From a virus (taxonomy: Duplodnaviria > Caudoviricetes), in IMG/VR virus record IMGVR_UViG_3300011403_000015, positions 1 to 52,509 of that record: 52,509 nt of DNA; one strand, 5' to 3'. The notes beneath the pieces were generated by a model, which saw only the letters and a program-made list of their open reading frames with translations, was not told the origin of the DNA and did not search any database. Below are positions 1-52,509 of this stretch, in pieces. Position 1 is the stretch's first letter. Every line of letters starts with the position of its first letter. Position numbers and translations under genes: made by a program.

Positions 1-40
1 GGCAGGGCAGGCAGGGCAGGCAGGGCAGGCAGGGGCAAGG
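1..40 (+). repeat. 9-bp tandem repeat (GGGCAGGCA)n at the left end, matching a G-quadruplex pattern
   Basis: GGG-CAGGCA-GGG-CAGGCA-GGG-CAGGCA-GGGG read directly at 5-35. Confidence 0.85.
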
Positions 41-61
41 CAAACCAACACGGCAGGCAAA

Positions 62-215
62 ATAAGAAAATTTGCATAGCAGTTTTGCAAAAACAAATTT
101 CGTTGCAGTTTTTGCAAAACAAATCTCGTGGCAAAAAACCACAAACAAATCTCGTAAGCAAAAACCAAAACCAAAATCTGGTAGCAGTTTTTGTAAAACA
201 AATCTCAAGCAAAGG
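62..215 (+). repeat. Array of ~6 degenerate 26-27-bp direct repeats (consensus ~AAAACAAATCTCGTAGCAGTTTTTGC)
   Basis: AAAT(C/T)T cores start at 68, 95, 121, 147, 174 and 200 (spacing 27, 26, 26, 27, 26). Confidence 0.75.
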
Positions 216-221
216 TAAAAC

Positions 222-458
222 ATGAAACGCAAAAATATGTACGTAGGTAAGCAAGTTCAGATTAATGTTAACGGCACACTTACCACAGGTATAATCTCAC
301 ACCTGTACCCTAACCTTAAATCTGAACTACAGCAACAGGTAGAAATAGATGTACTGCACAATGGGCAATTCTTAAGCCTAACATTGTACGCCTATCAAAT
401 CTACGCTGTGCCACATATTACCACCAACAAATCTGACCCATACGTACAAATTGCCTAA
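222..458 (+). CDS. hypothetical early protein
   Basis: 78-aa ORF with AAAGG RBS upstream; followed by a double-hairpin element like the other early genes. Confidence 0.6.
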   Translation: MKRKNMYVGKQVQINVNGTLTTGIISHLYPNLKSELQQQVEIDVLHNGQFLSLTLYAYQIYAVPHITTNKSDPYVQIA

Positions 459-471
459 CAACAATCTGCAA

Positions 472-529
472 ACTAGGTTGCACAAATCTCGCAAGGTTTG
501 TGCAACATAGTGTGCAAATCTGTTGCACA
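472..529 (+). promoter_or_regulatory. Intergenic double-hairpin element, copy 1
   Basis: GTTGCACAAATCT-cgca-AGGTTTGTGCAAC, then after ATAG a second stem TGTGCAA-atctg-TTGCACA. Confidence 0.7.
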
Positions 530-7072: not shown

Positions 7073-7130
7073 CAAACAGATAGCTCTCATGAAAATGGGA
7101 GCTATTTGTTTGCACTATACAATGTGCAAA
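7073..7130 (+). promoter_or_regulatory. Intergenic double-hairpin element, copy 9
   Basis: CAAACAGATAGCTCTCAT-gaaa-ATGGGAGCTATTTGTTTG overlapping TTGCAC-tatacaat-GTGCAA. Confidence 0.65.
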
Positions 7131-7278
7131 TTATAGCGTAGGGTATAGGCAAAACACCCGTTTTAAGGTTTTATACGCCTACAGTGTACGCTATAAAAAC
7201 ACCTATAGGGTGTTTTAAGTAGTACCCTACATAAAACACCTATACCCCTATTTTTACCCTTAAATAAAGGGTATAAAT
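7101..7278. other. GA/TC-free non-coding island with nested inverted repeats and 4 AAAACACC motifs (candidate origin or control region)
   Basis: No GA or TC in 178 bp; motif copies at 7151, 7196, 7209 (reverse) and 7233. Confidence 0.75.
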
Positions 7279-19682: not shown

Positions 19683-22600
19683 CCTACTTGTGCTACCTTC
19701 CTCAGAACTTGCAACAATCGTGTTTCAAATTCAGTTCCCAAACTAGCAGTAGACATGCCTGGTGGAGCATGGATCACAATCGCACCTTGATCTACTCGTA
19801 TGTTGGAAGTTTTCGATACGGCCCCACCAGTCATAGAGGATGGCGTGATGGTGTAGCTACTTCCCTCTGCTTTGATAATGGGTTCCGTAATGGTACTACC
19901 TGTCAGAACATTGCGCTCAACCTTTGCATCCTGCGGTTTGGGCAAAGCATCAATCACAGTTTGCTGGTCTGAGATTTCACCCGTAAGCCCTAAGACGGTA
20001 GCATTTACTGCATTTAGAGCATCTTGTAACGGCCCCAAATCAGCTCCGATTGCAATGGCTTCTGCCATCTTAGCTTTGATATCAGCGGCACGTTGCTCTG
20101 CACTTAATTTTCTATCTTCCAGCAAAAACTTCTTATGCTCTGCAAGTGCAATCGCTTGAGCACGCTTTTCTGCCATTGTCCATTCTTGATTTTCATAGCC
20201 CATTTCCAACATTCTAGCTTTGTGGGCCGTTTCCAGTTCCGTTAGTTCCTGACCAGCGTGGGTTCCAATCTGCGTGAGGCGTTCGCCATGCACCCTATCC
20301 ATTTCCAATAGTTGTGCATTGTGCTGCGTCGCATCTTTACCTAATCTAATCCCACGATCAATATCTTCCTCTGACTGGCGCAGGATATGAGCATCCTTCA
20401 TATCCTGTAAACGTTCAGCATCTTCTAGATCTTGTTCATGCAATCTTTCTGCGGCAGCAGCTTGTTGATCTGCGAGTTGCAGAGCATGGGCTTCATTGGC
20501 ATCCTTTACTCTTTCCTGATGCGCTTTGTTCTGCTCTTCAATTTCGTCTGCTAAATTTTCTTTTATCTCAGATAGCGTTTCAGCGTGCGCTTCCGCATTC
20601 TCGGCTAATTCTTCAGTGAGCTTTTCTTTTTCCTTCGCGATAGCCAGAGCTTGGTCTTCCTCTGCTTGCCGCTTCTTACGTGCATAAGATTTTTGTTCGG
20701 CATATACGGCAGCAGCATCAAGATGAGAAGCAGCATCTAGTATGGCATCGTTATGATCTTCAGCGGCACGTTTCTGTTGTCGCTTGAAGTCCTCTTCCAT
20801 TTCAAGGATTTGCTTGCCGCTGTCTTCCCTAGCTTCGGCTTGCTTTTCGTTGAAGTCTTCAATAGCTTCTTCGGTACGTTCGGCAGCATCCTTACGGGAA
20901 TCTGCAATATTTTCTTCTAAGTCTTCTTGATATTTAGCAAGCTGTCGGTTATGATCCCGATTCGCACGAGCAATAGATTTGGCTAAGTCTTCCTGAACAT
21001 CCAGTCTATCCTTCGCCATATCCCGTTCAGCATCAGCCAGGTCTGCCGCAAAATGGGCATTATCTCTAGCACGCTGACGAGCAAAATCTGCCGCTTCTTC
21101 TGTAAGATTCTGCTGATAATCCCGCTCTAAATTATTTCTAGACTGGAAGTAACTACGGTTCTCGGCCAGCGCATCTGAGTTAGCTTGTGCCATGATTGCA
21201 TTGCGCTCAGTAGTGAAGCTAACCATCTCATCTATTTGGTCTGCCGTTGGGCCTTTGGCTTTCCCTGCCATAGCGTAGGGATCATTGCTCAAGCCCATTG
21301 TAGGAGAAAGCCCACCCGTATCTAGCATATGTTGAGCGTTCAAGGCAGCAACAGAACGGCCAGCCTTCAGAAGTTCTCCATTCACTTTAGCGAAGGCATC
21401 CGCTAATTGCTCTGCGGTGGGTACAGTCCCCAAGACTGCGGAATTAAAGTTCCCAGCTTCTAGACTAGCTTTCTCCATCTCTAAGCCGATCTTAATGGCT
21501 TGCGCTTCCGCTAGATTATGGGAACCTTTTTGCCCTTCCCAAATACCACCAGGAACATCTCCTGTTCTGCGGATTTCATTGGGAGTTACTCTGTTGATGG
21601 CATCTGCGGCGGCTTGTATCTTATTAACATCTTTATTCAAGAAAGCTGCAATGTTATCAATCGGAACCTTAAAAGCCTGAGCAATTGCCAGACCTAGATC
21701 TTCATAGTCAGCGGCTAACTTCTCGGTTGCCGTAGCTTGTCCAGCGGCACTATCCGCAAGAGCACCATAGCGTTCTTCGGCATGTTCCAGTACAGCGTTC
21801 TGATAGGCTTGCTGTTTGGTCAGGGATGAATTGGCATCCATCATTTCTTCTTGCTTTTCACGCACTACATCGTATTGCAAGCCAAGCTGATCCAAACGCT
21901 GACCACGTTGCGTGAACATTTCCAAGATTAGATCATTTTGTACCGCATCAGGATCCCTACCTGTTGCCAGCGAGATCCCACGAATTCCCTTAGCAGCTTT
22001 TTGAAGTTCATCAGAAGTATCGGCAAAGCCTACACTCAGGAGCTTAGTGACGCCTTCTAGTTGCTTCTGCTTCCCTAACACACCACCTGTAGCTTCATCG
22101 TATTCTGTCAGAAAGCGATTAACTTGCGATTGACTTCCGGCTAAGGTTCTGGCCGCAACAGCTTGACGAGCATAAGCAGCGGTCATCGCATCGGCAGCAC
22201 CAGCCGCATCTACCATGCTCTTTACGATAGCTGTGATCTGCCCTACAATCGCACCTGCAACAAATCCTGCCGCAGCTAATCCAACGAAGCCACCTAACAA
22301 TCCGGCCGCACCACTACACGCTAAGGCTTTACCGACCGTCCCTGCCCCTTGCAAAAGACCGCTAGTACCCCATGCCGCACCCCAACCACCACCACCACCA
22401 CCACCACCACCACCACGCCCACCACCACCACCCGCTTGACGCTGTTGTGCTAACGCCATGCGATTCTGTTGCTGGAGAGCGGCTACCGCAATACGTTGCT
22501 GATGATTCTGTAATGATATCGCCTGTGCCGCTGCCGCTTGAGCAGCTTTGCTATTAGAATTGATAATCGCTGTTTGCACCTTGCCCGTAGCGATAATAGA

Positions 22601-24526: not shown

Positions 24527-24934
24527 TTATTCTTCCTCTCCTAATGTTACATATCCTAAGTTTGCTAATCTCTGCAAAGATACTCGAATCTTTGGCCCCC
24601 AATAATCACGAGCTGGAGTTAAGATGGCATAACGTCCCTGATGCGCTAATTCTAACCAAATGGTATAATGCAGCTCTGGATTGTGCTGTAGTACAATCGT
24701 ACCGATTGGCCCACCAGAAGGATCTACCCAACCCTTCAGACCTTCACGAGCTTTACCAGTCACATTTTGCCAGGGTGCGTTATCCTTCGCCCATAGCTCC
24801 ATTTCAGAGGCTAACCGTATAGCTTCTTTCCTACCCGCTACGAAGGTCGCTTGCAAGAACAGCTCGGTTGTCTCTCCCATTTTGGTTAGAGACTTGGGAT
24901 TCTCTACGTACACGCCGGATCGCCCCGCCATCAT
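24527..24934 (-). CDS. HK97 gp10-like tail completion protein
   Basis: WAKDNAPWQNVTGKAREGL...YTIWLELAHQGRYAILTPA; AAGGAGG RBS. Confidence 0.75.
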   Translation of the reverse strand: MMAGRSGVYVENPKSLTKMGETTELFLQATFVAGRKEAIRLASEMELWAKDNAPWQNVTGKAREGLKGWVDPSGGPIGTIVLQHNPELHYTIWLELAHQGRYAILTPARDYWGPKIRVSLQRLANLGYVTLGEEE

Positions 24935-25973
24935 ACCCTCCTTGTTCGTGGATCAACTCTATGAGTCCGGCAGCAGCATCTCGGTAAGTTTGATGTCCAG
25001 ATAGCCAAGCTCTTGCTTCCTTGCCTATCAGCGCAGCTTTATCAGGCGCATGATAGCAGAACTGCATAGCATCTGCTACCTTATGCTCATCCGCTACCAT
25101 CCACTCCCCGCTATCTCCCCGACCAGACGGCAGCACAGGCTTAATCTTACCACCTCGCACGATGATGGCCCACTTATTCGTGTTGCCGTCATCTAACCCT
25201 GCATACTGTTGCACAATCACGGGAAGGCCCATCATCGCAGCTTCACGATGAGGCATCCCCCATCCTTCGCAACGGGAAGGCAATGCAAGACAATCCCCCT
25301 GTGCGTAGAAGTCAGCCATATCCTCATAGATCCCTATATCAATTACAATGCGAGGATCCCAATCCTTTGCCCTGCGTAGAAGTTGCAACAAAGGATTGCC
25401 TCTAGGAGTGCTTTTAATGATGAGCCGTACATTCTGCTCTCCGGCACTTTTGCTGCCGAAGGCTTTGTAGAAAGCCCCGTAAACTTCCTGCCAACCCTTA
25501 CGAGTTCCTCGATCTGCTATGGTAAGGAAGGTATAGGGTCTTTCAGGGATCTGCTTTCCTACAGGAAATTCATCTGGATCTGTACCTAACGGCACAACCG
25601 ATATAGGAACCTTCACGCCACTATTGGTAAAGGCTTCCAAGTTATGCTGACACGGCACAAGAATCCTATCCAAACCGCAACGATTCAATAGCTTCACCGT
25701 ACTCTTGGGAATAGTGGTAGTTTCACACATAGTATAGAGCCAGTGTGTTCCCTTACCAGGAATCTTCCGCACGAATCTAGGAAGATGACAGGTGATGGTA
25801 AAGTTATCCCAATTTACACCCATCTGGTTCAGCATCCATTGCGGTCTGTCGATATCTTCGCAGAGCAACGGCAGCACATCCATTCCCCACTGTTGCATCT
25901 CACGCACTAAGCGACTGGAAAATCTACCATAGCCATCATGATTCAGATAGTAACTAATCCAGTTCACTCTCAT
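24831..25973 (-). CDS. GT-B fold glycosyltransferase (GT4-like)
   Basis: DGYGR N-terminus, RKG motif, LPSRCEGWGMPHREAAMMGLPVI (EX7E signature). Confidence 0.9.
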   Translation of the reverse strand: MRVNWISYYLNHDGYGRFSSRLVREMQQWGMDVLPLLCEDIDRPQWMLNQMGVNWDNFTITCHLPRFVRKIPGKGTHWLYTMCETTTIPKSTVKLLNRCGLDRILVPCQHNLEAFTNSGVKVPISVVPLGTDPDEFPVGKQIPERPYTFLTIADRGTRKGWQEVYGAFYKAFGSKSAGEQNVRLIIKSTPRGNPLLQLLRRAKDWDPRIVIDIGIYEDMADFYAQGDCLALPSRCEGWGMPHREAAMMGLPVIVQQYAGLDDGNTNKWAIIVRGGKIKPVLPSGRGDSGEWMVADEHKVADAMQFCYHAPDKAALIGKEARAWLSGHQTYRDAAAGLIELIHEQGGYDGGAIRRVRRESQVSNQNGRDNRAVLASDLRSG

Positions 25974-32027: not shown

Positions 32028-33639
32028 GGACAGCCCTCGTTGATGTTCTGATTACCCGTACAGTACGAGTAAAATTAGATTGCCCACGCCGCACAGTAGA
32101 TACGGCCCCAACAGGTATTTCATCCCCCACAGGTTCCATTTCTGGTGCAGCACGTCGCCCCTCAACATGAGCAGAGGCCATCATCACGTCCCCACCAAGG
32201 ATGATGATGCGAGCACACTGAGCCAGCGCAAAGCTCGTAGCTCTGTCGTCATGCTCATGTTCAGGGGCTTTTAACGTGCTACCGACTATGGAGGCGAGTT
32301 GTTGATAAGTAGAAAAAGCATGTACAATCGCGTCTTTTTCTTGTATAACCTTTGTACAATGTGTATACATTATAGCCTTTCCCTTAGTGGTATTGAGCCA
32401 CCCAGGACGGCTATCCATACCATTCATCGTACCTTCAAAGCCATCCTCTGCCAGCTTGAGCAGCACAGCATGACCATGATTGTTGCGTTCCACTAACACA
32501 CTAGCCTCGTTATAGAAGCCAGCTAACTTCTCAATGTAATCTGCAAAGGTGTTCGGTTGCAGCCGTTCGGCTAACAACGCTACTTCCTCGCCTGTAGCCA
32601 CATCCATAACAGTTGCAGAGCTATCATCTGAGTTAGGATTTCCTTCTGCAGGATCCGCCCCAATGACGTAAATGTGGCCGTCTTCAGGTCGCTTAAACAC
32701 AGTAAGACCAGGAAGCCCAATATTATCATCCCCCTCAAGCTCCTCGTAAACTGCCGCAAGCCATTCATAGGGAATCCTCTTATCCATTGAGCGTGGCTTC
32801 AGTGCCTCAGAATCGGTCGCTGGATATTGCTCGTACAGGTCGTCAAGGCTTCCTGTACGAGATTCAATATCCACCTTCTCCTTCTCATACCATTCCGGAG
32901 TCCTACGAGGATGAACGTACCAGGGCAAGAAGATGTGCGCCCAAGCCGTCTTGCCAGCTTTGGCGTCAATGTAGATCTTTTTGAAGTCAGAGATGGGCTT
33001 GTCTTTATCGGCACGAGACAGCAGTATCATTTTCCCACCGTTTGCAATAGTGGGTTTAACTGCTCGGAGAAGCGAGTTTAGGTCAGGAGAGAGATCAGCC
33101 TCGTCGACAATAGCCAGAGTAGCAGTATAACTATCGCCAGCAGAAGTAGGAAAACTTCGGGCTGTGCTCGCATTTTCCATACTCCACTCATGAGCATTGT
33201 CAGTGAAGACGTCATGACCACCCTTCATCCATTCCGGCAAGCGGTCATACATCCCACGAAGACGGTCTTCGGAGAGCAGGTAGATTGCATCTATGTCCCG
33301 CTTACTAAATATCAACACAGATGCAATCGGCCTGAAAATCATGCACCATAAAGCATACGCAAGAACAAGCCAGGTGAGACCAATCTGCCTTGCCTTGAGT
33401 ACGATGGATAACTGATTATTATGGATAATGTCAAGTGCAGCCATCTGAGCAGGCCACAGCTCAAAGGGAACCCAACCTGCATCTACAGTATCGTAGATGT
33501 GACAATACGTCCTGATAAAATAAGCAGGACTTTGATAGCATTTTCCAAGCTCCTCAGCCTCCAATTGCGTTAAGCTAAAATCAGGAGATGCTGAGAAGGT
33601 TCCTTTCTTCAGAGACAGTTTCCTCTTTTTCATCGACAA
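32002..33639 (-). CDS. terL: terminase large subunit
   Basis: KARQIGLT Walker A, AIVDEAD Walker B, GADPAEG and HDDRATS nuclease motifs. Confidence 0.95.
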   Translation of the reverse strand: MSMKKRKLSLKKGTFSASPDFSLTQLEAEELGKCYQSPAYFIRTYCHIYDTVDAGWVPFELWPAQMAALDIIHNNQLSIVLKARQIGLTWLVLAYALWCMIFRPIASVLIFSKRDIDAIYLLSEDRLRGMYDRLPEWMKGGHDVFTDNAHEWSMENASTARSFPTSAGDSYTATLAIVDEADLSPDLNSLLRAVKPTIANGGKMILLSRADKDKPISDFKKIYIDAKAGKTAWAHIFLPWYVHPRRTPEWYEKEKVDIESRTGSLDDLYEQYPATDSEALKPRSMDKRIPYEWLAAVYEELEGDDNIGLPGLTVFKRPEDGHIYVIGADPAEGNPNSDDSSATVMDVATGEEVALLAERLQPNTFADYIEKLAGFYNEASVLVERNNHGHAVLLKLAEDGFEGTMNGMDSRPGWLNTTKGKAIMYTHCTKVIQEKDAIVHAFSTYQQLASIVGSTLKAPEHEHDDRATSFALAQCARIIILGGDVMMASAHVEGRRAAPEMEPVGDEIPVGAVSTVRRGQSNFTRTVRVIRTSTRAVHAPTENLG

Positions 33640-34030
33640 CGTAGATCCCTGTTCTCATGGCAGCTATCAACATCGCAGGCGACATACCAATAGATTCCCC
33701 ATCTTTACCTGTAATTTCTTGCCGTTCAGAATATCCTCTAGCTTTACCTAATCTACTAAGAAGCCACTTAGCATCTGTAGTATCTCCAAGATCCCCATTA
33801 CGCTGTACTTCCTGCGCTATCTGTACATTGCGAAATACTACAGATTCACACAGATCAACCATCGTTTCCCGCTCTGCTTCAAAAACAGCTTTTATCTCAG
33901 GATCATTCTGGATGTAGGCTTCGGCAACACGCCATTCACATCGCAATCTCTTGGCGATGGTACTGATGATACCACCACTTCCAGAGATAGCATCTAGAAT
34001 TTGTTGATCTACAATGGATTCTTTATTCAT
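33581..34030 (-). CDS. terminase small subunit-like HTH protein (copy A)
   Basis: GIISTIAKRL HTH, KARGYSERQEITGKDG; directly upstream of terL. Confidence 0.75.
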   Translation of the reverse strand: MNKESIVDQQILDAISGSGGIISTIAKRLRCEWRVAEAYIQNDPEIKAVFEAERETMVDLCESVVFRNVQIAQEVQRNGDLGDTTDAKWLLSRLGKARGYSERQEITGKDGESIGMSPAMLIAAMRTGIYVVDEKEETVSEERNLLSIS

Positions 34031-34886
34031 TGCAACCTACTAAAAGCGGTCGGGTCGGATTTGCACCGCCCTCTTCTGACTGGTAGTCAACTGCGTCCTG
34101 TGTCGCCTCGACCGCATGATAACGTTTAGGATAAGGTTGTCGCATCTTCTCTACCTTAGCAATCAACGCTTTATCTGTTTTATCTAAGATATATACATAT
34201 CTATACTTAGCATTACTTCGCTGTTCAGTCCATCCGGCAGCACGTAATTCTTCTACATATGAACTGCGAGGCTTCTTGAAGCCACCACGTCTTTGCAAGT
34301 CATATGGTAGTTTTTGATCATATACTCTACCCGTAGGTGCAATCCATTGAGTAGTTGAAGAACCTTTACCTACGCATATCCAATTACATGCTTGGTAGAT
34401 TGTGCCTATTTCACCTGCATCTGTATCAGAATATGCTATCAGCAATTTAGCCTTCGTATCTTTAGCCATTAGCTTGCACGTCCAAGATACTAATTTAGAA
34501 TTTGCACCTTTCGGTGACCAATGCGTATTAGCTCCACGAGCAAGGATTGCTAATTCACGCTTTTCTATACCCCATTCCATGTGCGTACTTACACCACCTG
34601 TAGCGAAGCCTGCGGCAACACAACATATACCCGCACAATAAGAACCAAAGAATATGCCGTAGTGATAAGTGGTCTGTGCCATTGTTCCCAACCATTCGTA
34701 TTTCAGAATGATCTGCTCTGCCAAATTCCTACTGACAGGTCGCACGATAGCACGCTTAACATCTAAATGCGGTACAGGTGGCACACCTTCAGATTGATAT
34801 CTATCCCGAAGCTGCTTTTGCCAAGCAACATCACTAACTGCATTACGAAATGTCGATCGTAACAGTTGCTCGCTTTGCCCACTCAT
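34023..34886 (-). CDS. Mom-like (GNAT-fold) DNA adenine-modification protein
   Basis: ANSKLVS..LIAYSDTDAGEIGTIYQACNW and KYRYVY resemble the Mom-family S(Y/F)AD..G..G.IYQA.N(F/W) motif. Confidence 0.7.
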   Translation of the reverse strand: MSGQSEQLLRSTFRNAVSDVAWQKQLRDRYQSEGVPPVPHLDVKRAIVRPVSRNLAEQIILKYEWLGTMAQTTYHYGIFFGSYCAGICCVAAGFATGGVSTHMEWGIEKRELAILARGANTHWSPKGANSKLVSWTCKLMAKDTKAKLLIAYSDTDAGEIGTIYQACNWICVGKGSSTTQWIAPTGRVYDQKLPYDLQRRGGFKKPRSSYVEELRAAGWTEQRSNAKYRYVYILDKTDKALIAKVEKMRQPYPKRYHAVEATQDAVDYQSEEGGANPTRPLLVGCNE

Positions 34887-35409
34887 CTAGCTTTCCCTGA
34901 AAATCTACTAGATCCCTTGTTGAACAGCGGATTTCAATTAACTGCTCACTGGCTAATTGCGGTTCTTCTCGGGGTTCTGCTTCTGGTGGATCATCACTTC
35001 TCTTAAACTCTACAGGTTCAAATCCCCAATTCAGAAGATCCTCTACCGAAAATCTATTAGTTAAAATTTCAAAATCCCATTCACCGCCGGCACGATTGGC
35101 AACAATATTCGCTTGCTCTGCCTGCCGTTCCGTCCAGCGTACTTGACGATAGGAATATTTTCTATCCTTCCAAACCACAAATCCAAAGCCAACCGTACCT
35201 TGCTCGTCAGCTTCTGGATATTCTTCCGTCATGATAACTTTGCAGGAATTTATATCAAAAATCTTACTACGCTGATTCCCGCCTATAATTTCATCGCTAT
35301 TAAGCTCATGAACAATACCCGACAAATCCCCTAACTCCAACAGCCAAGTAGCAAGATCCCCCTGCTGCTTATCGCTTATGCGTCTTGGGTTTTTGTGATA
35401 AGGTTTCAT
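34843..35409 (-). CDS. ParB/Srx N-terminal-domain protein
   Basis: PYHKNPRRI..IIGGNQR..NIVANRAGGEWD, the type usually paired with phage DNA-modification enzymes. Confidence 0.75.
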   Translation of the reverse strand: MKPYHKNPRRISDKQQGDLATWLLELGDLSGIVHELNSDEIIGGNQRSKIFDINSCKVIMTEEYPEADEQGTVGFGFVVWKDRKYSYRQVRWTERQAEQANIVANRAGGEWDFEILTNRFSVEDLLNWGFEPVEFKRSDDPPEAEPREEPQLASEQLIEIRCSTRDLVDFQGKLDEWAKRATVTIDIS

Positions 35410-35843: not shown

Positions 35844-35862
35844 AAATATTTTCCTGTATAGA

Positions 35863-36013
35863 TTTACCCTATTAGGCTAACACAACATAACCTATTTGTA
35901 AAGCGGCAAAACACCTTATATTGTGGGGCATATGCCTTTATTTGCGCCATTATACAGCCTGTGCTATACTACTAAATACGTTGTGCGCCCAAGCACAATA
36001 AAATATTACAGCC
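35863..36013. promoter_or_regulatory. divergent control region between structural and replication operons; GA/TC-free
   Basis: No GA or TC over ~150 bp; GCAAAACACCTTA at 35906-35918. Confidence 0.75.
35942..35970 (+). promoter_or_regulatory. sigma70-type promoter for the replication operon
   Basis: TTGCGC-N17-TATACT with TG extended -10. Confidence 0.7.
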
Positions 36014-36031
36014 GAGAAAGGCCAAGACAGA

Positions 36032-39947: not shown

Positions 39948-40377
39948 GCAAGATTTAGATCTTCTCCGCCAGAAAGAGTATATGTTCTGGAGAAGTATAT
40001 CTTTAGTCTCTGACCTAGAAGAAGATTGCTGGCTTTGGCACAAAAGTACCACTCCTAATGGCTATGGAAAAATTCACTTAGGATCCAATAGAGCCGGTAA
40101 GCAGATAATGATCTATGCTCATCGTTTTAGTTATCTGCTATTTAATGGATCTATTCCGCAAAATATGCTATGTTTGCACAAGTGCGATGAGCCTAGATGC
40201 TGCAATCCTCTGCATTTGTTTATAGGAAATAAAGCTGATAACTCTATAGACATGATGCAGAAGGGTAGAGGTAACGGGCAATTTCACCCAGAACATACAA
40301 CTTGGGTAGGAAAGCATCACACAGAAGAAACTAAGAGGAAGATATCAGAAGCCAAGAGGAAAGAAAATGGAACCTGA
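39931..40377 (+). CDS. HNH endonuclease with NUMOD3 motif
   Basis: CWLW..YAHRFSY..LHKCDEPRCCNPLHL; GKHHTEETKRKISEA. Confidence 0.9.
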   Translation: MAWVDEQDLDLLRQKEYMFWRSISLVSDLEEDCWLWHKSTTPNGYGKIHLGSNRAGKQIMIYAHRFSYLLFNGSIPQNMLCLHKCDEPRCCNPLHLFIGNKADNSIDMMQKGRGNGQFHPEHTTWVGKHHTEETKRKISEAKRKENGT

Positions 40378-41185
40378 CATTACCATCATAGGTGGCGGTT
40401 TGAGTGCTATCTACGCCTATTGGGGTTGCCGTGATGCTGGCTACGAAGCTGACCAGATAGAAGTGCTGGCTTCAAAGATGGCACTCCCCATAGGAGCTAT
40501 CTTCATGTATGAAAGCCCAATCCCCTGGATCGCTACACCCATCACCAGCATCTTGTTAGGTACGGCAGACCTGTACTCCATGAACCAATGGACAAAGGTA
40601 GTGAAGACTAGCGCACATACACGCTTCAATAACAGCCAGAAAACTGTTACCGATTACCTGTATATGTATGAGGAAATGGCGACAACGCTGTGGGGCATGA
40701 TGCCTGGTTTACGGGAAAGTAAACCGTTAAGCGCACGAGAAATAGAGCAACTCAAGAAAGAGCGCAAGGCGGTTATCTGCACCTTCGCTAATACCGAGTA
40801 CAGACAAGGCTATGCGGAAAAGGGTTATATCATAAACTTCCCTATCTACATCAGTAGGGTAGAAACAGATAAGCACATCGTACTGTACAATGGTCTAAAT
40901 ACAATCCCCTGGGTACGGCAGACAATGGTTCCAGGACACCAGTACACAGAGTATCCTAACCATATCATAGGGCCAACCATTACACAGTATGAAAACAACA
41001 GAGGCAACGCAGATGGACAGATACACTTTGCCCCTGACCTCATGCCCAACACCCCACCTCTAGCTTGGCATGAACGTATAGAAGATAACCTATTGCGTGT
41101 AGGTAGATTGGCTGCCTTCAAAACGGGCTACCTAAGCCATCATGCACGTATGGATACCAAACGGTTCCTAATGGAGTTAGTATGA
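40367..41185 (+). CDS. FAD/NAD-binding Rossmann-fold protein (putative oxidoreductase or mutase)
   Basis: ITIIGGGLSA dinucleotide-binding start; VGRLA near the C-terminus. Confidence 0.6.
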   Translation: MEPDITIIGGGLSAIYAYWGCRDAGYEADQIEVLASKMALPIGAIFMYESPIPWIATPITSILLGTADLYSMNQWTKVVKTSAHTRFNNSQKTVTDYLYMYEEMATTLWGMMPGLRESKPLSAREIEQLKKERKAVICTFANTEYRQGYAEKGYIINFPIYISRVETDKHIVLYNGLNTIPWVRQTMVPGHQYTEYPNHIIGPTITQYENNRGNADGQIHFAPDLMPNTPPLAWHERIEDNLLRVGRLAAFKTGYLSHHARMDTKRFLMELV

Positions 41186-42156
41186 GAAAGACCCTAGCGC
41201 AAGTATGGGACGAGCAGCAAGAATACAACGATAAGGTTAAACAGTTCCAAACACGTAGCAGCTCGGAATGGCTTATCAACTACATACTAGGCGCACATAG
41301 CGAGCTAAGTGAATTGCTAGATCAAACTCACTGGAAGACGCATCGTCTAGAAACTATGTGGCAGTTCGGCCCCAACATAAGCGAAGAACTAGCTGACCTT
41401 ACCAAGTATGTGTTCAGCATGTGGATTGAGATGGGCTACACAGAGCAGGATATGCTAGATTCCATGCACAGCAAGCATGAGATTCTTGAGCAGCTAATGT
41501 ATCAAGATACACGGCCACAACTACAAGAACGTAACATCCTCATGCTAGACCTGGATGGCGTAGTAGCGGACTTCCGCAAAGGCTTTATGCTGTGGCTCAA
41601 TAACACCAAGTGGCGTGACGTGCTCACGCTGGACGAGCGTGATATTGGTTTACACATGGACATCAACAATGGCTGGAACTACCATAGCTATCACCAAGCA
41701 AAGATGGAATTTGAGCGTGACGGTGGTTATGGCACACTCCCATCCATCACCCGTATTAAGAAGTGCGTTAATGCCTTACATCGGGTTGGCTGGTACATCA
41801 TTGTGTACACAGCACGTCCTTACCGCACCTATAAGCGCATCTGGAGCGACACTTGGCTATGGCTTAAGAACCATGACATTGAAGCAGATGAGCTACACTT
41901 CGGTTATGATGAGCGTGTAGTTGCGGCCAGCCAATACAAAGAAGAAAACCATGTGGTAGCCCTAGAGGATGATCCTACACTTATCAAGCGTTATGTAGGA
42001 TGTAACATCCCCGTCCTCTTATGCCCACAGCCGTACAATCAGAACATCTTCCTCAACAACAACTATCTAAGGTTAATACAAGATGAGCAAGAACACTGGG
42101 ACATCAGCAATGCAGTCCATGGAACAATTGAAACTGGAGCTTTCAATGCCGGATAG
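41182..42156 (+). CDS. all-alpha NTP pyrophosphatase (dUTPase/MazG-like) fused to HAD 5'-nucleotidase-like domain
   Basis: ELSELLD..WK.H and EELADLTKY; LDLDGVVADF, YTAR and LEDD HAD motifs. Confidence 0.8.
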   Translation: MRKTLAQVWDEQQEYNDKVKQFQTRSSSEWLINYILGAHSELSELLDQTHWKTHRLETMWQFGPNISEELADLTKYVFSMWIEMGYTEQDMLDSMHSKHEILEQLMYQDTRPQLQERNILMLDLDGVVADFRKGFMLWLNNTKWRDVLTLDERDIGLHMDINNGWNYHSYHQAKMEFERDGGYGTLPSITRIKKCVNALHRVGWYIIVYTARPYRTYKRIWSDTWLWLKNHDIEADELHFGYDERVVAASQYKEENHVVALEDDPTLIKRYVGCNIPVLLCPQPYNQNIFLNNNYLRLIQDEQEHWDISNAVHGTIETGAFNAG

Positions 42157-42514
42157 AGAAAAGGATACACTTGACGCCATGCGTGATTTAGTGAAGACCG
42201 TAACAGGATTGACTCCGGCAGAACAACAGCGTATGGAAGCTACCATTAAACTCTATCAGATAGAATATGAAGTCTGCAAAGATATATTTATGGATCGTAA
42301 TAAGATCTATAAAAATACCTTTGAACATCTGGGACTTATCGGTACAGTTATCACCCTCATAGGAGATACTTACCGCCTACGCAATATGATTGTACAAGAG
42401 CCAGATCACGGCAGAAAGTACAAAGAGCAAATCGAAGATAAGCTGCGTGATGTGGTCAACCAAGCCCTGATAAGCCTTATGATGCTACACGAAGACAACT
42501 ACGAGGGCAGATAA
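42146..42514 (+). CDS. DUF1599-like nucleotide-modification-associated protein
   Basis: IFMDRNKIYKNTF..RLRN..IEDKLRDVVNQALISL pattern; ATG at 42146 follows GGAG. Confidence 0.6.
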   Translation: MPDREKDTLDAMRDLVKTVTGLTPAEQQRMEATIKLYQIEYEVCKDIFMDRNKIYKNTFEHLGLIGTVITLIGDTYRLRNMIVQEPDHGRKYKEQIEDKLRDVVNQALISLMMLHEDNYEGR

Positions 42515-43413
42515 TGAGTACAATGGCAAGCCGTAGCGTCCATAAAGATGGCGGCAACAAAGCACCTGGTCAGTACGGACGCACCGATATCAACTATGAC
42601 AACCTCACGGTAGAGTGCATCTTGTGGCCTGAAGAGGAAGTCGTAAAGCGTGTTCTCAGTAAAGCTAGTGTTGCCGTCAAAGGCAGCATCGTTGGTAAAG
42701 ATGAAGTAGATGAGCGTAGCGTGCAAGATATGTTCAGGGGTGGCTTGAACCAAGCCTTAGAATGGTTCACGGTTGCTTTTGAATGTAGCGGCGTGACCAG
42801 AGGCGTCACGCACCAACTTGTAAGAACCCGCAAAGCCAGCTTCGCCCAACAAAGTATGCGATATGCAGACATGGGGAGCTTCAACGCACGTATGCCCAAA
42901 GCCATCGCAGAAAGCGAAGTAGATGCTGTACTAAGTGAATACAACTACCCCCATCTGTACAACTTACAATGGGATGAGGGTATGCACAGAGCTACCACAC
43001 CACAGAAGGTCTGGTTAGATGCAATAGCGGTTTCTCGGGAAGCCTATGCTTGGTTGGCCGAACATGACATACCCATGCAAGATGCACGCACCGTATGTCC
43101 CATCGCTACCGAAACCTACATTATCTGCGAATACCCACTTAGCGAGTTCATCGCTACCTATGCCTATCGTGCGTGCCAAATGTTCTACCCTGAAACAGTT
43201 GCGCTATTCGGGCTTATGCGTGAAGCCCTCTTAGAAAAGTGTGAATGGCTAGAACCCCATCTGCTGATAAGCTGCCAGAAGACCAGTGGTGGCATTAACG
43301 GATTGCCGCACAAATGCACCTATCAAGGATGGGAACAGGTAGAAGGTCAGTGTACCTTTGATTGGGCTTTAGAGGAGAACAGAATCTTCAAGAGCTCGAA
43401 AGTAGATAAGTGA
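42514..43413 (+). CDS. thyX: ThyX-like flavin-dependent thymidylate synthase with variant motif
   Basis: THQLVRTRKASFAQQSMRY (RHR->RTR), QDARTVCP. Confidence 0.8.
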   Translation: MSTMASRSVHKDGGNKAPGQYGRTDINYDNLTVECILWPEEEVVKRVLSKASVAVKGSIVGKDEVDERSVQDMFRGGLNQALEWFTVAFECSGVTRGVTHQLVRTRKASFAQQSMRYADMGSFNARMPKAIAESEVDAVLSEYNYPHLYNLQWDEGMHRATTPQKVWLDAIAVSREAYAWLAEHDIPMQDARTVCPIATETYIICEYPLSEFIATYAYRACQMFYPETVALFGLMREALLEKCEWLEPHLLISCQKTSGGINGLPHKCTYQGWEQVEGQCTFDWALEENRIFKSSKVDK

Positions 43414-43696: not shown

Positions 43697-43704
43697 AGGG
43701 AACA

Positions 43705-50267: not shown

Positions 50268-50273
50268 TATGAT

Positions 50274-50465
50274 ATGATCACGGCAGGAAGGATGATGACC
50301 TACCCAGGCGAGTTCTGGGTAGGAATGGGAATCTTTGCCATCGTATCTTTTTTGGCTTTGATGACGGAGATATACTGGCGTAAGAGGATAGAATGGGAAC
50401 AGGAGGATATTGCGATTTGGGAGGATTTGTTCTATGCTTTGGAGGGGGAGGGGATAGGGGATTGA
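50274..50465 (+). CDS. small single-TM protein
   Basis: Hydrophobic FWVGMGIFAIVSFLALM; follows the endolysin. Confidence 0.5.
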   Translation: MITAGRMMTYPGEFWVGMGIFAIVSFLALMTEIYWRKRIEWEQEDIAIWEDLFYALEGEGIGD

Positions 50466-50466
50466 C

Positions 50467-50643
50467 ATGACTGGAACTATCTTCGTAGTTAGTATCTTCG
50501 TACTGGCTACCCTTCTTAGTTTGTTCATAGATTACATCGGTGAGCAATATAGGGTGAAGTGGTGGATAAGAGGTGTGATATGGATTGGAAGTCTATCGGT
50601 GATGCTATATGGGATCTTATGGGTTTTAGGGGTGTGGGATTAA
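50467..50643 (+). CDS. 58-aa two-TM protein, holin candidate (not in ORF track)
   Basis: MTGTIFVVSIFVLATLLSLFIDYIGEQYRVKWWIRGVIWIGSLSVMLYGILWVLGVWD*; overlaps the 5' part of ORF 50559. Confidence 0.45.
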   Translation: MTGTIFVVSIFVLATLLSLFIDYIGEQYRVKWWIRGVIWIGSLSVMLYGILWVLGVWD

Positions 50644-50882
50644 AAGATGAACGAGAACTTGAACGGCTTCATAATTGGATTCTGGCGTGGATGCTTTCTG
50701 GGAATGTTGTTCGTGATGGGAGGAGGGTGTATTATCGTGATGGTGGGGATGATGTTAGCGGTGGGGATTGGTATCCTTCCGTGATGTTGGGTGGGGGAGG
50801 TGATGGGAAGGGCGGCGGGGATACGGCAGCACAGATGAGAGAATTGGATTGGATGATGTTAGGTCATGGAAAGGGAGTGGTG

Positions 50883-51308
50883 ATGATGACGAAAGTTAAG
50901 ATGGGGGATCTTACGTTGGAAGAGCGGGAAACTGCGATTGTAGGGAATGCGGGGGATCGTGGAGTGTGGAGAATCTATTCAGATGACCCCGTTATGATTG
51001 GGAGGCTGGAGAAGTTGGGGATGAAGGGAGTGGAGAGGGAGGATGGGATTGGAAAGGAATTTTTAGTGACGGCCAACCAAGTATCATTTAGAAGGGAACG
51101 TATTATGACGGAGGAGGAGAGGAGGATACGAGGAGATAGAGCAAGAGCGGCCTTCGGACACGGCCAGCCGAAGAGTACGGCCCAACCTGTGAGGGAGGTG
51201 GAGAAGTGCGAATATTGCGATGGAACTGGATGGGAAGATGGATTGGTGGAAGGGGAAGATAGGGTGGTGTGTTCGGTATGTGGCGGCACAGGCACTAAAG
51301 ATGACTAA
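50883..51308 (+). CDS. hypothetical protein with C-terminal DnaJ-type zinc finger
   Basis: Part of ORF 50559..51308; GAAAGGGAG RBS before ATG at 50883; CEYCDGTG...CSVCGGTG. Confidence 0.65.
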   Translation: MMTKVKMGDLTLEERETAIVGNAGDRGVWRIYSDDPVMIGRLEKLGMKGVEREDGIGKEFLVTANQVSFRRERIMTEEERRIRGDRARAAFGHGQPKSTAQPVREVEKCEYCDGTGWEDGLVEGEDRVVCSVCGGTGTKDD

Positions 51309-51321
51309 TTGATAGGTTTGA

Positions 51322-52509
51322 GGCATTGTGGCTGTGCGTGCGGTTTAGGCGTACAGCTACAATGCCTTGTGGGGTTTTATTTTGCCTGCGTGTAGGCGTT
51401 TTAAGCGTGTTATGGGTTGTTTAGGTAGTTTGCTATGCTTTATGGGTTTTAAGGGCTTGCGGTGGCTTAATTTTAGGGTAAATTATCATATTTTGACAAA
51501 AATTGACAAAAAAATAAAAATTTTTAGATTATTTTTTGCAAATTTGAGCAGTTTTTATTGCGTATAGTAATATGCCTTACGATTTTTGCTTTTTTTTTGG
51601 GCGTTGGGGGCAAACAATCCTTTTCATTCCCTTATTTTTTCAAAATCTAAAAAAAATAATTTGGAAAATGGGCGTTTTTATCGGAGATGGTTCGGCCGGT
51701 TGGCGGCATTTAGCAACAAAAGATGCAATGCCGCAAGTACCTAGCAAATTTTGTTGCAAAACGGGCTTGCACCAAAAGTTGCAAAGCGGGGGGTAAAATA
51801 CACGTAATTTGTTTGCCAACATTGCCCCTAAACCTTTTGCCGTATTGCAACGTAATATGCTAAAAATAGGGGGTGCGGCGGGCAGGCAGGCAATAGCACA
51901 TATGGGCTACATAGCACATATGTGCTAGGGGGTGCGGTAGTTAACATAATAATAAAATGCCGTGTACCCCCTTTATTTTGGCCTACAAAGGCGGGTTGCC
52001 TTTGCAGGTATAAACTAGCATGGTGGGTAATTATAACCGTGTTGCGGTACTTACCCTTATTATTACACTGGTAATACTGCCTTTGCAGGTAAAATGGCGG
52101 GTTACCCAAATTATTGTGCAACAAAAATTGTAAACTGTTAAAAGGTGTTTTAACAGTTAGGGGGGTAAGGTGTTTTGCGGTATACCGCACCCCAAAATGG
52201 GGGGCGCAGGCAGTACCCCCACGGGGGGTAGGCCCCCTAAAAGGCAGGGGGTTAGTGTAGCGCACACCCATACCCATTGCACATTATATTGCGGCGGGGG
52301 GTAAGGTATAAAGGCAAAGGGATTGCCCTTTTTATTTATTGCCTATATACCCCCCCCCTATATATACCCTATACAAATTTTTATATTATTATAAAACCTT
52401 TGTATAACCTTAATACCTTACATTACCTTACACCTGCCGTAAACCTGCCCACCCCATTACCAACCCGCCCCCCGCACAATACCTTAATACCTTACGCCAA
52501 ACCCCCAAA
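51322..52509. other. right-end non-coding region, largely GA/TC-free, with short direct and inverted repeats
   Basis: No GA/TC in 51322-51485; a single GA (52321) in 51724-52509; TGCCTTTGCAGGTA at 51997 and 52078; inverted repeat at 52133-52158; TACCTTA repeats near the end. Confidence 0.8.

What the first reader, a model, noticed from the sequence alone, without database searches (positions are those of the whole stretch)
51724..52509. Non-coding DNA purged of the GA/TC dinucleotide: footprint of a sequence-specific DNA modification system
Seen: reading base by base, 51724-52320 (~600 bp) has no GA and no TC, and 52323-52509 has none either; the one exception is the GA at 52321. The same holds for 51322-51485, 7101-7278, 35863-36013 and 1-65. 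The reverse dinucleotides AG/CT are plentiful in these tracts and GA/TC is abundant in the genes, so base composition does not explain it. A rough estimate at uniform composition is (7/8)^600, about 1e-35. The islands coincide with the big cis-acting regions: the genome ends, the divergent promoter and an inverted-repeat region. Inference: virion DNA carries a bulky modification at GA (or TC on the other strand), installed by the Mom-like enzyme or the glycosyltransferase, and sites that proteins must read just after injection or during packaging have lost the target. Alternative: avoidance of a host system that targets GA/TC-containing motifs (DarT-type TNTC ADP-ribosylation, Dnd GAAC/GTTC, GA-containing R-M sites). 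Caveat: the promoters at 4605 and 8567 do contain TC, so not every promoter is purged.
Basis: partly seen in the sequence, partly recalled or inferred. Interest (0 to 1): 0.92.

Follow-up and report, generated by a model that had tools for sequence, protein, structure and literature searches.

The report
Phage DNA segment lacking GA/TC dinucleotides
A group of uncultured phages keeps one segment of about 4.7 kb, genes included, and three promoter-sized islands completely free of the two-letter word GA on either strand, so the proteins encoded there have no aspartate or glutamate, which points to an unidentified process that acts on GA/TC across the rest of the genome.

Summary
In the window, GA/TC-free tracts of 598, 188, 178, 165, 152 and 65 nt stand far outside chance (expected counts 7e-31 to 1.5e-5). 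No other dinucleotide class has a comparable tract.

The window's two ends are the edges of one zone. That zone is complete in relatives: 4782, 4720 and about 4620 nt, with 0, 0 and 3 GA/TC.

The zone and three intergenic islands stay GA/TC-free in relatives even though their sequences have diverged to 42-86% identity. That shows selection, not shared ancestry.

The zone is not purely non-coding. It holds a gene with a clear coding signature (ORF A; 21 homologues, 2820 residues, 1 Asp, 0 Glu) and two more probable genes.

The Mom/ParB cassette is an accessory insertion. It is absent from 7 relatives that have the tracts (complete in six, relaxed in G008), so it is not the cause.

Best reading (about 0.4): these regions are exempt from a GA/TC-directed DNA transaction, probably a phage-directed dinucleotide-specific base modification. 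Enzymes with exactly this specificity exist (DpdA at GA, a T-dioxygenase at NTC), but no such enzyme was recognised here.

Main rival (about 0.25): a first-expressed segment kept immune to a TC/GA-directed nuclease, deaminase or similar enzyme. The mechanism remains unproven.

The parts
51723..52509 (.). Proximal part of the GA/TC-free zone (787 nt, one GA at 52321). Holds short repeats and a patch conserved with G003. The contig breaks inside the zone.
   Evidence: The single GA lies in the loop of a terminator-like hairpin at 52313-52331. An X3 contig runs about 4.27 kb beyond 52509.
1..66 (.). Distal end of the same zone. Begins with a (GGCAG)n simple repeat, the likely cause of the assembly break.
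   Evidence: G005 and G009 join the two window ends through a complete zone.
51487..51722 (.). Spacer between island 3 and the zone. AT-rich, with normal GA/TC content. Has two sigma-70-like TTGACA sites pointing into the zone and a conserved TCGGA...TCGG element at about 51681-51696.
   Evidence: A spacer of 96-354 nt is present in 6 of 6 relatives compared.
51321..51486 (.). Island 3: 165-nt GA/TC-free tract after the last + strand gene. Begins with a conserved hairpin followed by a T-run.
   Evidence: 42-70% identity to 4 relatives, all with 0 GA/TC; no covariation support for a structured RNA.
35862..36014 (.). Island 2: 152-nt GA/TC-free tract filling the divergent intergenic region between terS (-) and the SNF2 helicase (+), except the two ribosome-binding sites.
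   Evidence: 50-81% identity to 6 relatives, all with 0 GA/TC.
7100..7278 (.). Island 1: 178-nt GA/TC-free tract running from a terminator hairpin to the ribosome-binding site of the next + strand gene.
   Evidence: 70-86% identity to G001 and G002, 0 GA/TC. It is kept in G001, which lacks the adjacent HNH gene.
67..521 (+). Early regulatory region next to the zone that is NOT purged. Seven CAAATCT repeats, each containing TC.
   Evidence: 7 of the 12 window matches lie at 120-521.
33581..35409 (-). Accessory cassette: 149-aa ORF, Mom-family protein (34023-34886), ParB-like protein (34843-35409). Tested and excluded as the cause of the tracts.
   Evidence: PF25680 2.8e-25; phrog_1384; phrog_498/620. 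Absent from 7 of 7 relatives.
24831..25973 (-). GT4-type glycosyltransferase in the structural module. Conserved candidate only.
   Evidence: PF13692 1.2e-9; GT4-conflict 6e-7. Present in 7 of 7 relatives at 51-87% identity. The substrate (DNA or virion protein) is unknown.
40367..43413 (+). Conserved nucleotide-metabolism cluster: FAD/NAD-binding 272-aa protein, dUTPase_2 + NT5C fusion, 143-aa ORF, divergent ThyX-family enzyme. Candidate source of a non-canonical pyrimidine (inference).
   Evidence: ThyX equivalog 60 bits against a cut-off of 87.9; motif RTR in place of RHR. Conserved in all relatives that cover it.
22358..22438 (-). (GGT)n poly-glycine repeat in the tape-measure gene. A trivial GA/TC-free tract, not part of the phenomenon.

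Best explanation
SHOWN
- The window's two ends are the edges of one zone of about 4.7 kb, lying between the late + strand genes and the early genes.
- That zone, plus three intergenic islands of 150-180 nt, is kept free of GA on both strands by purifying selection throughout a clade of uncultured tailed phages.
- The distal 1.5-2 kb of the zone carries a + strand operon. ORF A is certainly coding; ORFs B and D are probably coding. Its proteins therefore lack Asp and Glu.
- The proximal part, about 3 kb, is made of lineage-specific short repeats.

INFERRED
- These regions are exempt from a DNA transaction that acts on every GA:TC step elsewhere in the genome.
- I favour a phage-directed, post-replicative, dinucleotide-specific base hypermodification of virion DNA.
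- The exempt parts would be those the host transcription machinery must read on fully modified, infecting DNA: a hard-wired first transcription unit and the promoters of the middle and late operons.
- The enzyme is not identified. Mom is not it.
- Candidates are the conserved GT4 glycosyltransferase and the ThyX-like / dUTPase-nucleotidase / FAD cluster.
For: Statistics.

Extent in relatives:
- Complete zones: G003 4782 nt with 0 GA/TC, G009 4720 nt with 0, G005 about 4620 nt with 3.
- Partial zones: L049 at least 3676 nt with 0, G001 at least 2167 nt with 1, L052 at least 1201 nt.

Selection rather than inheritance:
- Zones align only in patches.
- Islands are 42-86% identical to the window's, yet 0 GA/TC in 12 of 12 relative islands.
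- The same numbers of random substitutions kept an island clean in 0-2 of 20000 trials.

The constraint overrides coding:
- ORF A differences by codon position are 31/22/72 for G001 against G005, with 52 synonymous and 35 non-synonymous codon changes.
- 0 of 553 F/L/I/V/G/R/S codons in the zone genes use a GA/TC-containing codon (log10 P = -79).
- 0 of 1826 codons are Asp or Glu, against 12.7% in ordinary genes.
- 21 ORF A homologues total 2820 residues with 1 Asp and 0 Glu.

Both GA and TC are absent whatever the direction of transcription. One motif read on duplex DNA explains that.

Precedents for this exact specificity:
- Phage iggy DpdA modifies 97% of GA sites (PMC10484667, passages read).
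- Phage T-dioxygenase 5mYOX97 prefers NTC. Such pathways co-occur with glycosyltransferases (31%), ParB (27%) and terminases (19%) (PMC13229309, sections 8 and 12 read).

Other support:
- iggy has four GA/TC-free tracts of 151-170 nt (expected counts 2e-4 to 1e-3), more extreme than any other class in that genome.
- The gene set resembles thymidine-replacement pathways (dTTPase, dTMPase, thymidylate synthase homologue, FAD enzyme; PMC8989533, passages read).
Against: - No recognisable dinucleotide-specific modifier in the conserved core. Tet_JBP was found in 0 of 5 records. DpdA by tblastn had a best E of 1.1 across 8 genomes, with a working control.
- The Pfam TGT search also missed iggy's own DpdA, so it carries no information.
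- CAjan, which is modified at GA, has no GA/TC-free tract beyond chance (longest 80, expected count 0.7).
- Three of iggy's four tracts lie in low-complexity annotated CDS.
- The early regulatory region beside the zone is full of TC (CAAATCT repeated 7 times), as is the spacer that carries the best sigma-70-like sites. So not every site read early is purged.
- GA/TC is at exactly the expected frequency in ordinary genes, so the supposed modification costs nothing there.
- Lineage G008 has a relaxed constraint (61 sites in 2420 nt, 3 sites in island 2) with no gene loss in the 29 kb its contig covers.
- No physical evidence for any modified base was available.
Confidence: 0.4

Rival explanations
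1. Immunity of a first-expressed (possibly first-entering) segment. The zone is an analogue of the phage T5 first-step-transfer region. It must work while a TC/GA-directed DNA-damaging activity is present, before the rest of the genome is exposed or protected. That activity could come from the host or the phage: a low-specificity nuclease, a dsDNA cytosine deaminase with 5'-TC preference, or a DarT-like ADP-ribosyltransferase.
For: - The zone lies directly upstream of the early genes and carries its own + strand operon with a terminator.
- Its length is conserved (4782, 4720, about 4620 nt) although its sequence is not. That fits a physical or quantitative role.
- About 3 kb of the zone is repeat-built filler, as is recalled for the T5 first-step-transfer DNA.
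- A 5'-nucleotidase domain is present.
- All elements relax together in G008 without visible gene loss, as a change of host would produce.
- From my own knowledge, not a call: T5 first-step-transfer DNA lacks EcoRI sites; T4 endonuclease IV prefers T-C(A) in single-stranded DNA; DddA prefers 5'-TC.
Against: - The three internal islands gain nothing from being immune if thousands of sites around them are hit.
- The large terminase is T4-like at about 25% identity, which suggests headful packaging without a fixed leading end.
- Contigs in two relatives read straight through the zone.
- No nuclease or deaminase with such specificity was recognised.
- The spacer and the early promoters next to the zone are not purged.
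Confidence: 0.25
2. RNA-level constraint. The zone and islands are transcribed, and the RNAs must lack GA and UC, for example to escape a ribonuclease.
For: - The zone begins just downstream of sigma-70-like sites in the unpurged spacer.
- Islands 1 and 2 include 5' leaders.
- Promoter DNA in the spacer is allowed to contain GA/TC.
Against: - It needs one agent that recognises two unrelated RNA dinucleotides, whereas a single motif on duplex DNA explains both.
- Island 2 is purged across the whole divergent intergenic region.
- No Rfam family or tRNA was found in the window or in two relatives' zones.
- There is no covariation support for a structured RNA in island 3.
Confidence: 0.07
3. A no-priming zone. 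The phage's AEP primase-helicase starts at a template dinucleotide such as 5'-TC, and these regions are kept free of initiation sites on both strands.
For: - A conserved AEP primase-helicase is present (75-85% identity in relatives).
- Primases with di- or trinucleotide recognition are known. T7's 5'-GTC contains TC (recalled, not from a call).
Against: - There is no evident benefit to excluding priming at promoters or in a gene operon.
- The primase specificity is unknown.
- Nothing links the islands to replication origins.
Confidence: 0.05
4. Local hypermutation. A TC-specific deaminase has erased TC (and GA on the other strand) wherever the DNA is most exposed.
For: AA and TT are over-represented in the zones (observed/expected 1.15-2.06).
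Against: - Edges are sharp and sit at gene boundaries.
- Island lengths are conserved.
- The adjacent AT-rich, promoter-like spacer is unpurged.
- ORF A is under purifying selection with many synonymous changes, none of which makes GA/TC.
- Any purge of GA and TC inflates the other xA and Tx words anyway.
Confidence: 0.04
5. One reading: the Mom-like enzyme, with its ParB-like neighbour, installs a bulky adduct at GA, and the islands are its footprint.
For: - A Mom-family protein scoring above the Pfam cut-off is present.
- Mu Mom acts at S-A-S, which includes GAG and GAC (PMC13219725, passages read).
Against: - The cassette is absent from 7 of 7 relatives that have the islands or the zone (complete in six, relaxed in G008).
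- Mu Mom's motif also includes CAS, and CA is not depleted. CA/TG is the most frequent class in the window.
Confidence: 0.03

Closest known systems
GA-specific 7-deazaguanine (dPreQ0) modification by DpdA in Pseudomonas phage iggy, and GA/GGC in phage CAjan
   Same: - A phage-encoded post-replicative system that targets exactly the GA dinucleotide on both strands and modifies about 97% of sites (PMC10484667, passages read).
- The replication module is similar in make-up: helicase, Sak4, DUF669, PolA, primase.
- iggy has four GA/TC-free tracts of 151-170 nt.
   Different: - No DpdA or preQ0 synthesis genes here.
- CAjan shows no such tracts.
- Nothing resembling a zone of about 4.7 kb with embedded genes is seen in either genome.
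- The passages read from the iggy paper do not mention GA-free regions. Its supplements could not be opened.
Phage thymine dioxygenases (5mYOX97, NTC preference) with ParB activators and glycosyltransferases
   Same: - Post-replicative modification of T in the TC context, which is the same duplex dinucleotide.
- The pathways often sit beside terminase genes and include a glycosyltransferase and ParB (PMC13229309, sections 8 and 12 read).
- This window has a ParB-like gene and a glycosyltransferase.
   Different: - No Tet_JBP-type protein found (0 of 5 records).
- The ParB-like gene belongs to the accessory Mom cassette.
- The paper itself reports that thousands of the contigs its phage-specific profiles retrieved carry no TET/JBP Pfam annotation, so a negative search with that Pfam model is weak evidence.
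Phage T5 first-step-transfer DNA and other leading regions purged of restriction sites
   Same: A defined several-kb segment beside the earliest genes, rich in repeats and carrying a few small genes, that avoids a target sequence abundant in the rest of the genome. The T5 facts are recalled; only the abstract of bioRxiv 10.64898/2026.04.02.716235 was seen, in a search listing.
   Different: - What is avoided is a dinucleotide rather than a 6-bp site.
- Avoidance is absolute over 4.7 kb and is imposed on coding sequence.
- Three internal promoter-sized islands share it.
- Fixed termini or two-step entry have not been shown here.
Phage Mu Mom (adenine N6 glycinamide modification at S-A-S)
   Same: A Mom-family GNAT-like protein is encoded at 34023-34886 in a late operon.
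   Different: - It is accessory in this clade.
- The target motif of Mu Mom is not GA-specific (PMC13219725).
- It is not correlated with the GA/TC-free tracts.

Membership tests
Mom family (PF25680) | Sequence match to the family model above the curated cut-off | tested here: met
   89.6 bits against a cut-off of 27.1; phrog_1384, 2.3e-28; 90.4 bits in G000.
Mom family (PF25680) | Modifies adenine in a defined context (S-A-S in Mu) using Gly-tRNA | not testable with these tools
   Needs biochemistry. The Mu data come from PMC13219725 (passages read).
   0 of 7 relatives have Mom, and all 7 have the islands or the zone: complete in six, relaxed in G008.
DpdA / 7-deazaguanine DNA modification system | A DpdA transglycosylase plus preQ0 synthesis genes (FolE, QueC, QueD, QueE) | tested here: not met
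   tblastn with the iggy and CAjan DpdA against 8 genomes, best E 1.1; the control found each DpdA in the other phage at 3e-157. No Que genes in the Pfam/PHROG scans of 53 window ORFs. (Pfam TGT) carries no information because it missed iggy's own DpdA.
5mYOX (TET/JBP) thymine dioxygenase pathway | An Fe(II)/2OG dioxygenase of the TET_JBP family | tested here: not met
   0 of 5 records at E <= 0.1. This is weak evidence because divergent members escape this model (PMC13229309, section 12).
5mYOX (TET/JBP) thymine dioxygenase pathway | An associated glycosyltransferase and/or ParB activator | tested here: met
   GT4 at 24831-25973. ParB-like at 34843-35409, but in the accessory cassette only.
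Pre-replicative thymidine replacement (SPO1 / M6 / ViI type) | A thymidylate synthase homologue, a dTTPase/dUTPase and a dTMP nucleotidase | tested here: inconclusive
   A ThyX-family protein scores below the equivalog cut-off (60 against 87.9 bits). A dUTPase_2 + NT5C fusion is present. The known dUMP hydroxymethylases are ThyA-type (PMC8989533). No 5-hmdU DNA kinase or amino acid:DNA transferase was recognised.
T5-type first-step-transfer region | Lies at a fixed genome end or terminal repeat and enters first | tested here: inconclusive
   Contigs G005 and G009 read through the zone. The large terminase is T4-like at about 25% identity. No raw reads were available to map termini.
T5-type first-step-transfer region | Carries genes and avoids a target site that is common elsewhere in the genome | tested here: met
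Structured non-coding RNA gene (for the islands) | A match to a known family, or a conserved structure with covariation | tested here: not met
   0 Rfam matches; 0 tRNAs; covariation term +0.67, which gives no support.

The most novel reading that the evidence does not exclude
Every GA:TC step of this clade's virion DNA carries a bulky base modification that host RNA polymerase cannot initiate on or read through. The only part of the infecting genome that can be expressed is a GA/TC-null cassette of about 4.7 kb, whose genes are written in an alphabet without Asp or Glu. GA/TC-null promoters then keep the middle and late operons readable whatever the modification state. DNA modification would therefore serve both as armour and as a hard-wired temporal switch. 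The zone proteins ORF A, B and D would be a new class of acid-free immediate-early effectors.
Probability: 0.18. Interest if true: 0.95.

Novelty: new variant of a known kind. Interest (0 to 1): 0.87.

Why it matters
Avoidance of target sites is known for 4-6 bp restriction sites, and for the first-entering DNA of T5. Here the avoided word is a single dinucleotide. The avoidance is absolute over kilobases. It is maintained in lineages whose sequence has otherwise diverged beyond alignment, and it is strong enough to remove two amino acids from real proteins.

Such a footprint can be read from sequence alone. It could be used to predict dinucleotide-specific DNA modification, or dinucleotide-specific defence, in uncultured phages.

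It also makes two open questions testable. One is why post-replicative, context-specific hypermodification exists at all. The other is how the earliest genes of a heavily modified, or heavily attacked, genome get expressed.

The acid-free proteins are a natural experiment in a reduced amino-acid alphabet.

Four literature searches found no description of such zones. This covers only the held library and my choice of terms.

Tried and rejected
- DNA similarity to cultured phages: none. Protein-level relatives reach only about 25% identity, so no cultured model exists.
- Pattern scan for relatives of the last gene, 50559-51308: none.
- Scan with the ORF A alignment returned only the three loci already held, because the patterns used were low-complexity.
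- Pfam and PHROGs on five zone proteins: nothing significant.
- AlphaFold2 of ORF A with 20 sequences: mean pLDDT 51, three helices. Too poor for a fold search, so none was run.
- PDB sequence searches for the 272-aa and 302-aa proteins: nothing useful.
- The ESM Atlas placed the 272-aa protein among small viral FAD/NAD-binding proteins. This is a lead only.
- NCBIfam added only the sub-threshold ThyX score.
- Rfam and tRNA scans: empty.
- Island 3 consensus fold: no covariation.
- Context-dependent mismatch rates between close relatives showed no excess at GA/TC. The measure is confounded by codon structure and is not informative.
- iggy relatives are more than 90% identical in the region tested, so they cannot show whether iggy's tracts are selected.
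- Sequencing runs: 24 holders, all DNA contigs, and no RNA holder listed.
- Laying four runs showed no variant in 51300-52509. Contig depth cannot test for a terminal repeat.
- Sigma-70 consensus scans: 7 sites against 3.0 +/- 1.8 expected around the spacer, and nothing notable in island 2. The extended -10 promoters I read by eye in island 2 are therefore unconfirmed.
- Gene-by-gene comparison found no gene missing only from the relaxed lineage G008. Its contig lacks the early region.
- L009 is 100% identical to part of G008 and is not an independent case.
- Explanations considered and set aside without a test: CRISPR PAM avoidance, Dnd phosphorothioation motifs, GATC/GANTC methylation sites, Chi sites, Shine-Dalgarno avoidance. 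Each needs only a subset of GA/TC words, or one strand.
- Supplements of the iggy, 5mYOX and Mom papers were not opened. They may hold per-site modification maps or contig lists that bear on this.
Full report
OBSERVATION

A count of all dinucleotides confirms the finding to the base. The window has GA/TC-free tracts of 598 nt (51723-52321), 188 (52322-52509), 178 (7100-7278), 165 (51321-51486), 152 (35862-36014) and 65 (1-66). The GA at 52321 is the only exception in the last 787 nt.

GA and TC occur at exactly the expected frequency over the whole window (observed/expected 1.00 and 0.98), and at 0.126 per base in genes. No other two-word class has a free tract longer than 97 nt.

Under a geometric model with each class's own frequency, the expected numbers of such tracts are 7e-31, 1.4e-7, 5e-7, 2.7e-6 and 1.5e-5. 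The best value for any other class is 9e-3. Phages T1 and lambda, analysed the same way, have no GA/TC-free tract beyond chance (longest 66 and 61).

A seventh tract, 22358-22438, is a (GGT)n poly-glycine repeat in the tape-measure gene and is trivial. Most intergenic regions are not purged.

WHAT THE GENOME IS

The window is an entire IMG/VR virus record, classed as linear. It has no DNA-level relative among 50,697 phage records. Its polymerase and large terminase are only about 25% identical to those of cultured phages.

Gene layout:
- Early genes lie on the + strand (222-10250).
- The structural and packaging module lies on the - strand (10841-35843).
- A replication, nucleotide-metabolism and lysis module lies on the + strand (36032-51308). 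It includes an SNF2 helicase, Sak4, a DUF669 protein, a FAD/NAD-binding protein, a dUTPase_2 + NT5C fusion, a divergent ThyX-family enzyme, PolA, an AEP primase-helicase and an M23 peptidase.
- A Mom-family protein and a ParB-like protein sit between terS and terL.
- A GT4 glycosyltransferase sits in the structural module.

The phage is present in contigs of at least 24 public runs from freshwater sediment, sediment and groundwater.

THE TRACTS IN RELATIVES

Searches with the terminase, an early protein and the primase-helicase brought in relatives from viral and metagenome collections. Seven whole records were fetched.

Relative G005 is colinear with window 23009-51524. It then has about 4.6 kb with only three GA/TC, and then continues with window 970-9382. 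G009 does the same with 4720 nt free of any GA/TC. So the window's right and left ends are the two edges of one zone, and the contig broke inside it at a (GGCAG)n repeat.

Other zones:
- G003: 4782 nt with no GA/TC.
- L049: at least 3676 nt with none, to the contig end.
- G001: at least 2167 nt with one.
- L052: at least 1201 nt.

One run's contig extends about 4.27 kb beyond the window's right end. The three complete zones are nearly the same length, yet they align with each other only in patches. Each lineage's zone is built from its own short repeated words.

The architecture is the same in 6 of 6 relatives compared: island 3, then a spacer of 96-354 nt with normal GA/TC, then the zone.

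SELECTION, NOT INHERITANCE

The three islands are present at the same places in every relative of the strict lineages that covers them.
- Island 1: 2 relatives, 70-86% identity to the window.
- Island 2: 6 relatives, 50-81% identity.
- Island 3: 4 relatives, 42-70% identity.

All 12 have zero GA/TC. Putting the observed numbers of substitutions at random into the window's islands left them GA/TC-free in 0 to 2 of 20000 trials.

THE ZONE IS PARTLY CODING

The distal 1.5-2 kb of the zone holds + strand ORFs conserved in G001, G003, G005 and G009.

ORF A has a clear coding signature. Differences at codon positions 1/2/3 are 31/22/72 between G001 and G005, with 52 synonymous and 35 non-synonymous codon changes. 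In G009 it is followed by a strong terminator hairpin. ORFs B and D are less certain. They have conserved cores, and ORF B has lysine/proline/alanine-rich tails.

Across the ten ORFs:
- None of 553 Phe, Leu, Ile, Val, Gly, Arg or Ser codons is a GA/TC-containing codon. Given the genome's normal usage, log10 P = -79.
- None of 1826 codons is Asp or Glu, against 12.7% in ordinary genes.

A search of 5.8 billion proteins found 21 ORF A homologues at 60-81% identity. Together they have 2820 residues with one Asp and no Glu.

The zone proteins match no Pfam or PHROG family, and a structure prediction of ORF A was of low confidence. The constraint therefore acts on the nucleic acid and overrides protein coding.

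THE MOM CASSETTE IS NOT THE CAUSE

The block 33563-35568 (149-aa ORF, Mom, ParB-like) is missing from all seven relatives. A family search finds Mom in G000 and in a near-identical fragment, which is the positive control, but not in G001-G005, G007 or G008. Mu Mom acts at S-A-S (PMC13219725, passages read), which is not GA-specific.

A RELAXED LINEAGE

In G008 (L009 is an identical piece):
- The zone has 61 GA/TC in 2420 nt, which is 2.5% against about 12%.
- 50 of the 61 are in a GCNGA context, mostly inside that lineage's own repeated words.
- Island 2 has three sites and island 3 has one.

All genes in the 29 kb that G008 covers are present, so the determinant is either outside that contig or outside the phage.

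WHAT IT MOST LIKELY IS

Both GA and TC are absent whatever the direction of transcription. One motif read on duplex DNA explains that most simply. Sites are neutral in ordinary genes and apparently intolerable in the zone and islands. So these regions must be exempt from something that happens at GA:TC steps elsewhere.

Enzymes with exactly this specificity are known in phages. DpdA of phage iggy replaces G in 97% of GA sites with dPreQ0 (PMC10484667). The thymine dioxygenase 5mYOX97 prefers NTC and belongs to pathways that often include glycosyltransferases and ParB and sit near terminase genes (PMC13229309, sections 8 and 12).

As a control I analysed iggy. It has four GA/TC-free tracts of 151-170 nt, more extreme than any other class in that genome. 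However, three of them lie in low-complexity annotated CDS. CAjan, also modified at GA, has none.

The conserved ThyX-like enzyme, the dUTPase-nucleotidase fusion and the FAD protein recall thymidine-replacement pathways (PMC8989533), but no defining enzyme of those pathways was recognised. No DpdA and no Tet_JBP protein was found.

I therefore favour, at about 0.4, a phage-directed GA/TC-specific base modification, with the zone and islands as the parts that host machinery must read on modified DNA.

RIVALS AND UNEXPLAINED POINTS

- At about 0.25, a T5-like first-expressed segment kept immune to a TC/GA-directed damaging enzyme.
- Lower: an RNA-level constraint, a no-priming zone, local hypermutation, and the Mom version.

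Points no reading explains well:
- the TC-rich CAAATCT repeats and the unpurged spacer directly beside the zone;
- the conserved length of the zone;
- the relaxed lineage G008.

COMPARISON AND NOVELTY

In principle this is target-site avoidance. It is closest to the restriction-site-free first-step-transfer DNA of T5 (recalled) and to the GA- or TC-specific modification systems named above.

It differs in four ways:
- the avoided word is a dinucleotide;
- the avoidance is absolute over about 4.7 kb;
- it extends through real genes, producing proteins without acidic residues;
- it is shared by three promoter-sized islands.

Four full-text searches found no description of such zones.

Noticed in passing
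L058/L059 (phage iggy MN029011): 42700-42870, 27694-27854, 39300-39456, 60074-60225: Phage iggy has experimentally shown GA-specific dPreQ0 modification. It has four GA/TC-free tracts of 151-170 nt (expected counts 2e-4 to 1e-3), more extreme than any other dinucleotide class in its genome. Three lie in low-complexity annotated CDS and one is intergenic. The passages read from its paper do not mention this.
   Followed up: partly
window 120-521: Seven copies of CAAATCT on the + strand cluster in the early regulatory region directly downstream of the zone (7 of 12 matches in the window). This looks like an operator or promoter motif that needs a TC, beside DNA that forbids TC.
   Followed up: partly
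window 51681-51696, and the same place in G003, G005, G009 and L049: A conserved element with two TCGG(A) half-sites about 11 nt apart sits at the end of the spacer, 30-70 nt before the zone begins. It may be a protein-binding or cleavage site.
   Followed up: no
G003 40-4822; G009 24153-28873; G005 27777-32400: The zone length is conserved (4782, 4720 and about 4620 nt), although the sequences are mostly unalignable and are built from lineage-specific 8-12-mers repeated 10-30 times.
   Followed up: partly
L040 (G008) 2643-3113, - strand: In the relaxed lineage the spacer carries a 156-aa ORF rich in Asp and Glu that looks by eye like a GIY-YIG homing endonuclease. This was not tested against a family library.
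   Followed up: no
window 7301-7633 and 39931-40377: Two HNH endonuclease genes are present or absent among close relatives (absent from G001 and from most others), as expected of mobile homing endonucleases. Island 1 persists without the adjacent one.
   Followed up: partly
window 42514-43413: The ThyX-family protein scores below the NCBIfam ThyX equivalog cut-off (60 against 87.9 bits) and has RTR where ThyX has RHR in its signature motif. Together with a dUTPase_2 + NT5C fusion (41182-42156) and a small viral FAD/NAD-binding protein (40367-41185), this suggests non-standard pyrimidine metabolism.
   Followed up: partly
L063 (phage lambda) 20019-20611: The control genome lambda has a 592-nt TA-free tract (expected count 4e-9), where orf-401 and the oppositely oriented orf206b overlap. 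Long single-word gaps can arise from overlapping reading frames.
   Followed up: no
G001 1248; G005 31313 and 31960: Three of the rare GA/TC exceptions inside zones lie 4-5 nt downstream of the same motif, AACTTTACATAA. Two of them are upstream of ORF A. CTTTACAA is also invariant in island 2 (alignment A1). It may be a shared promoter element.
   Followed up: no
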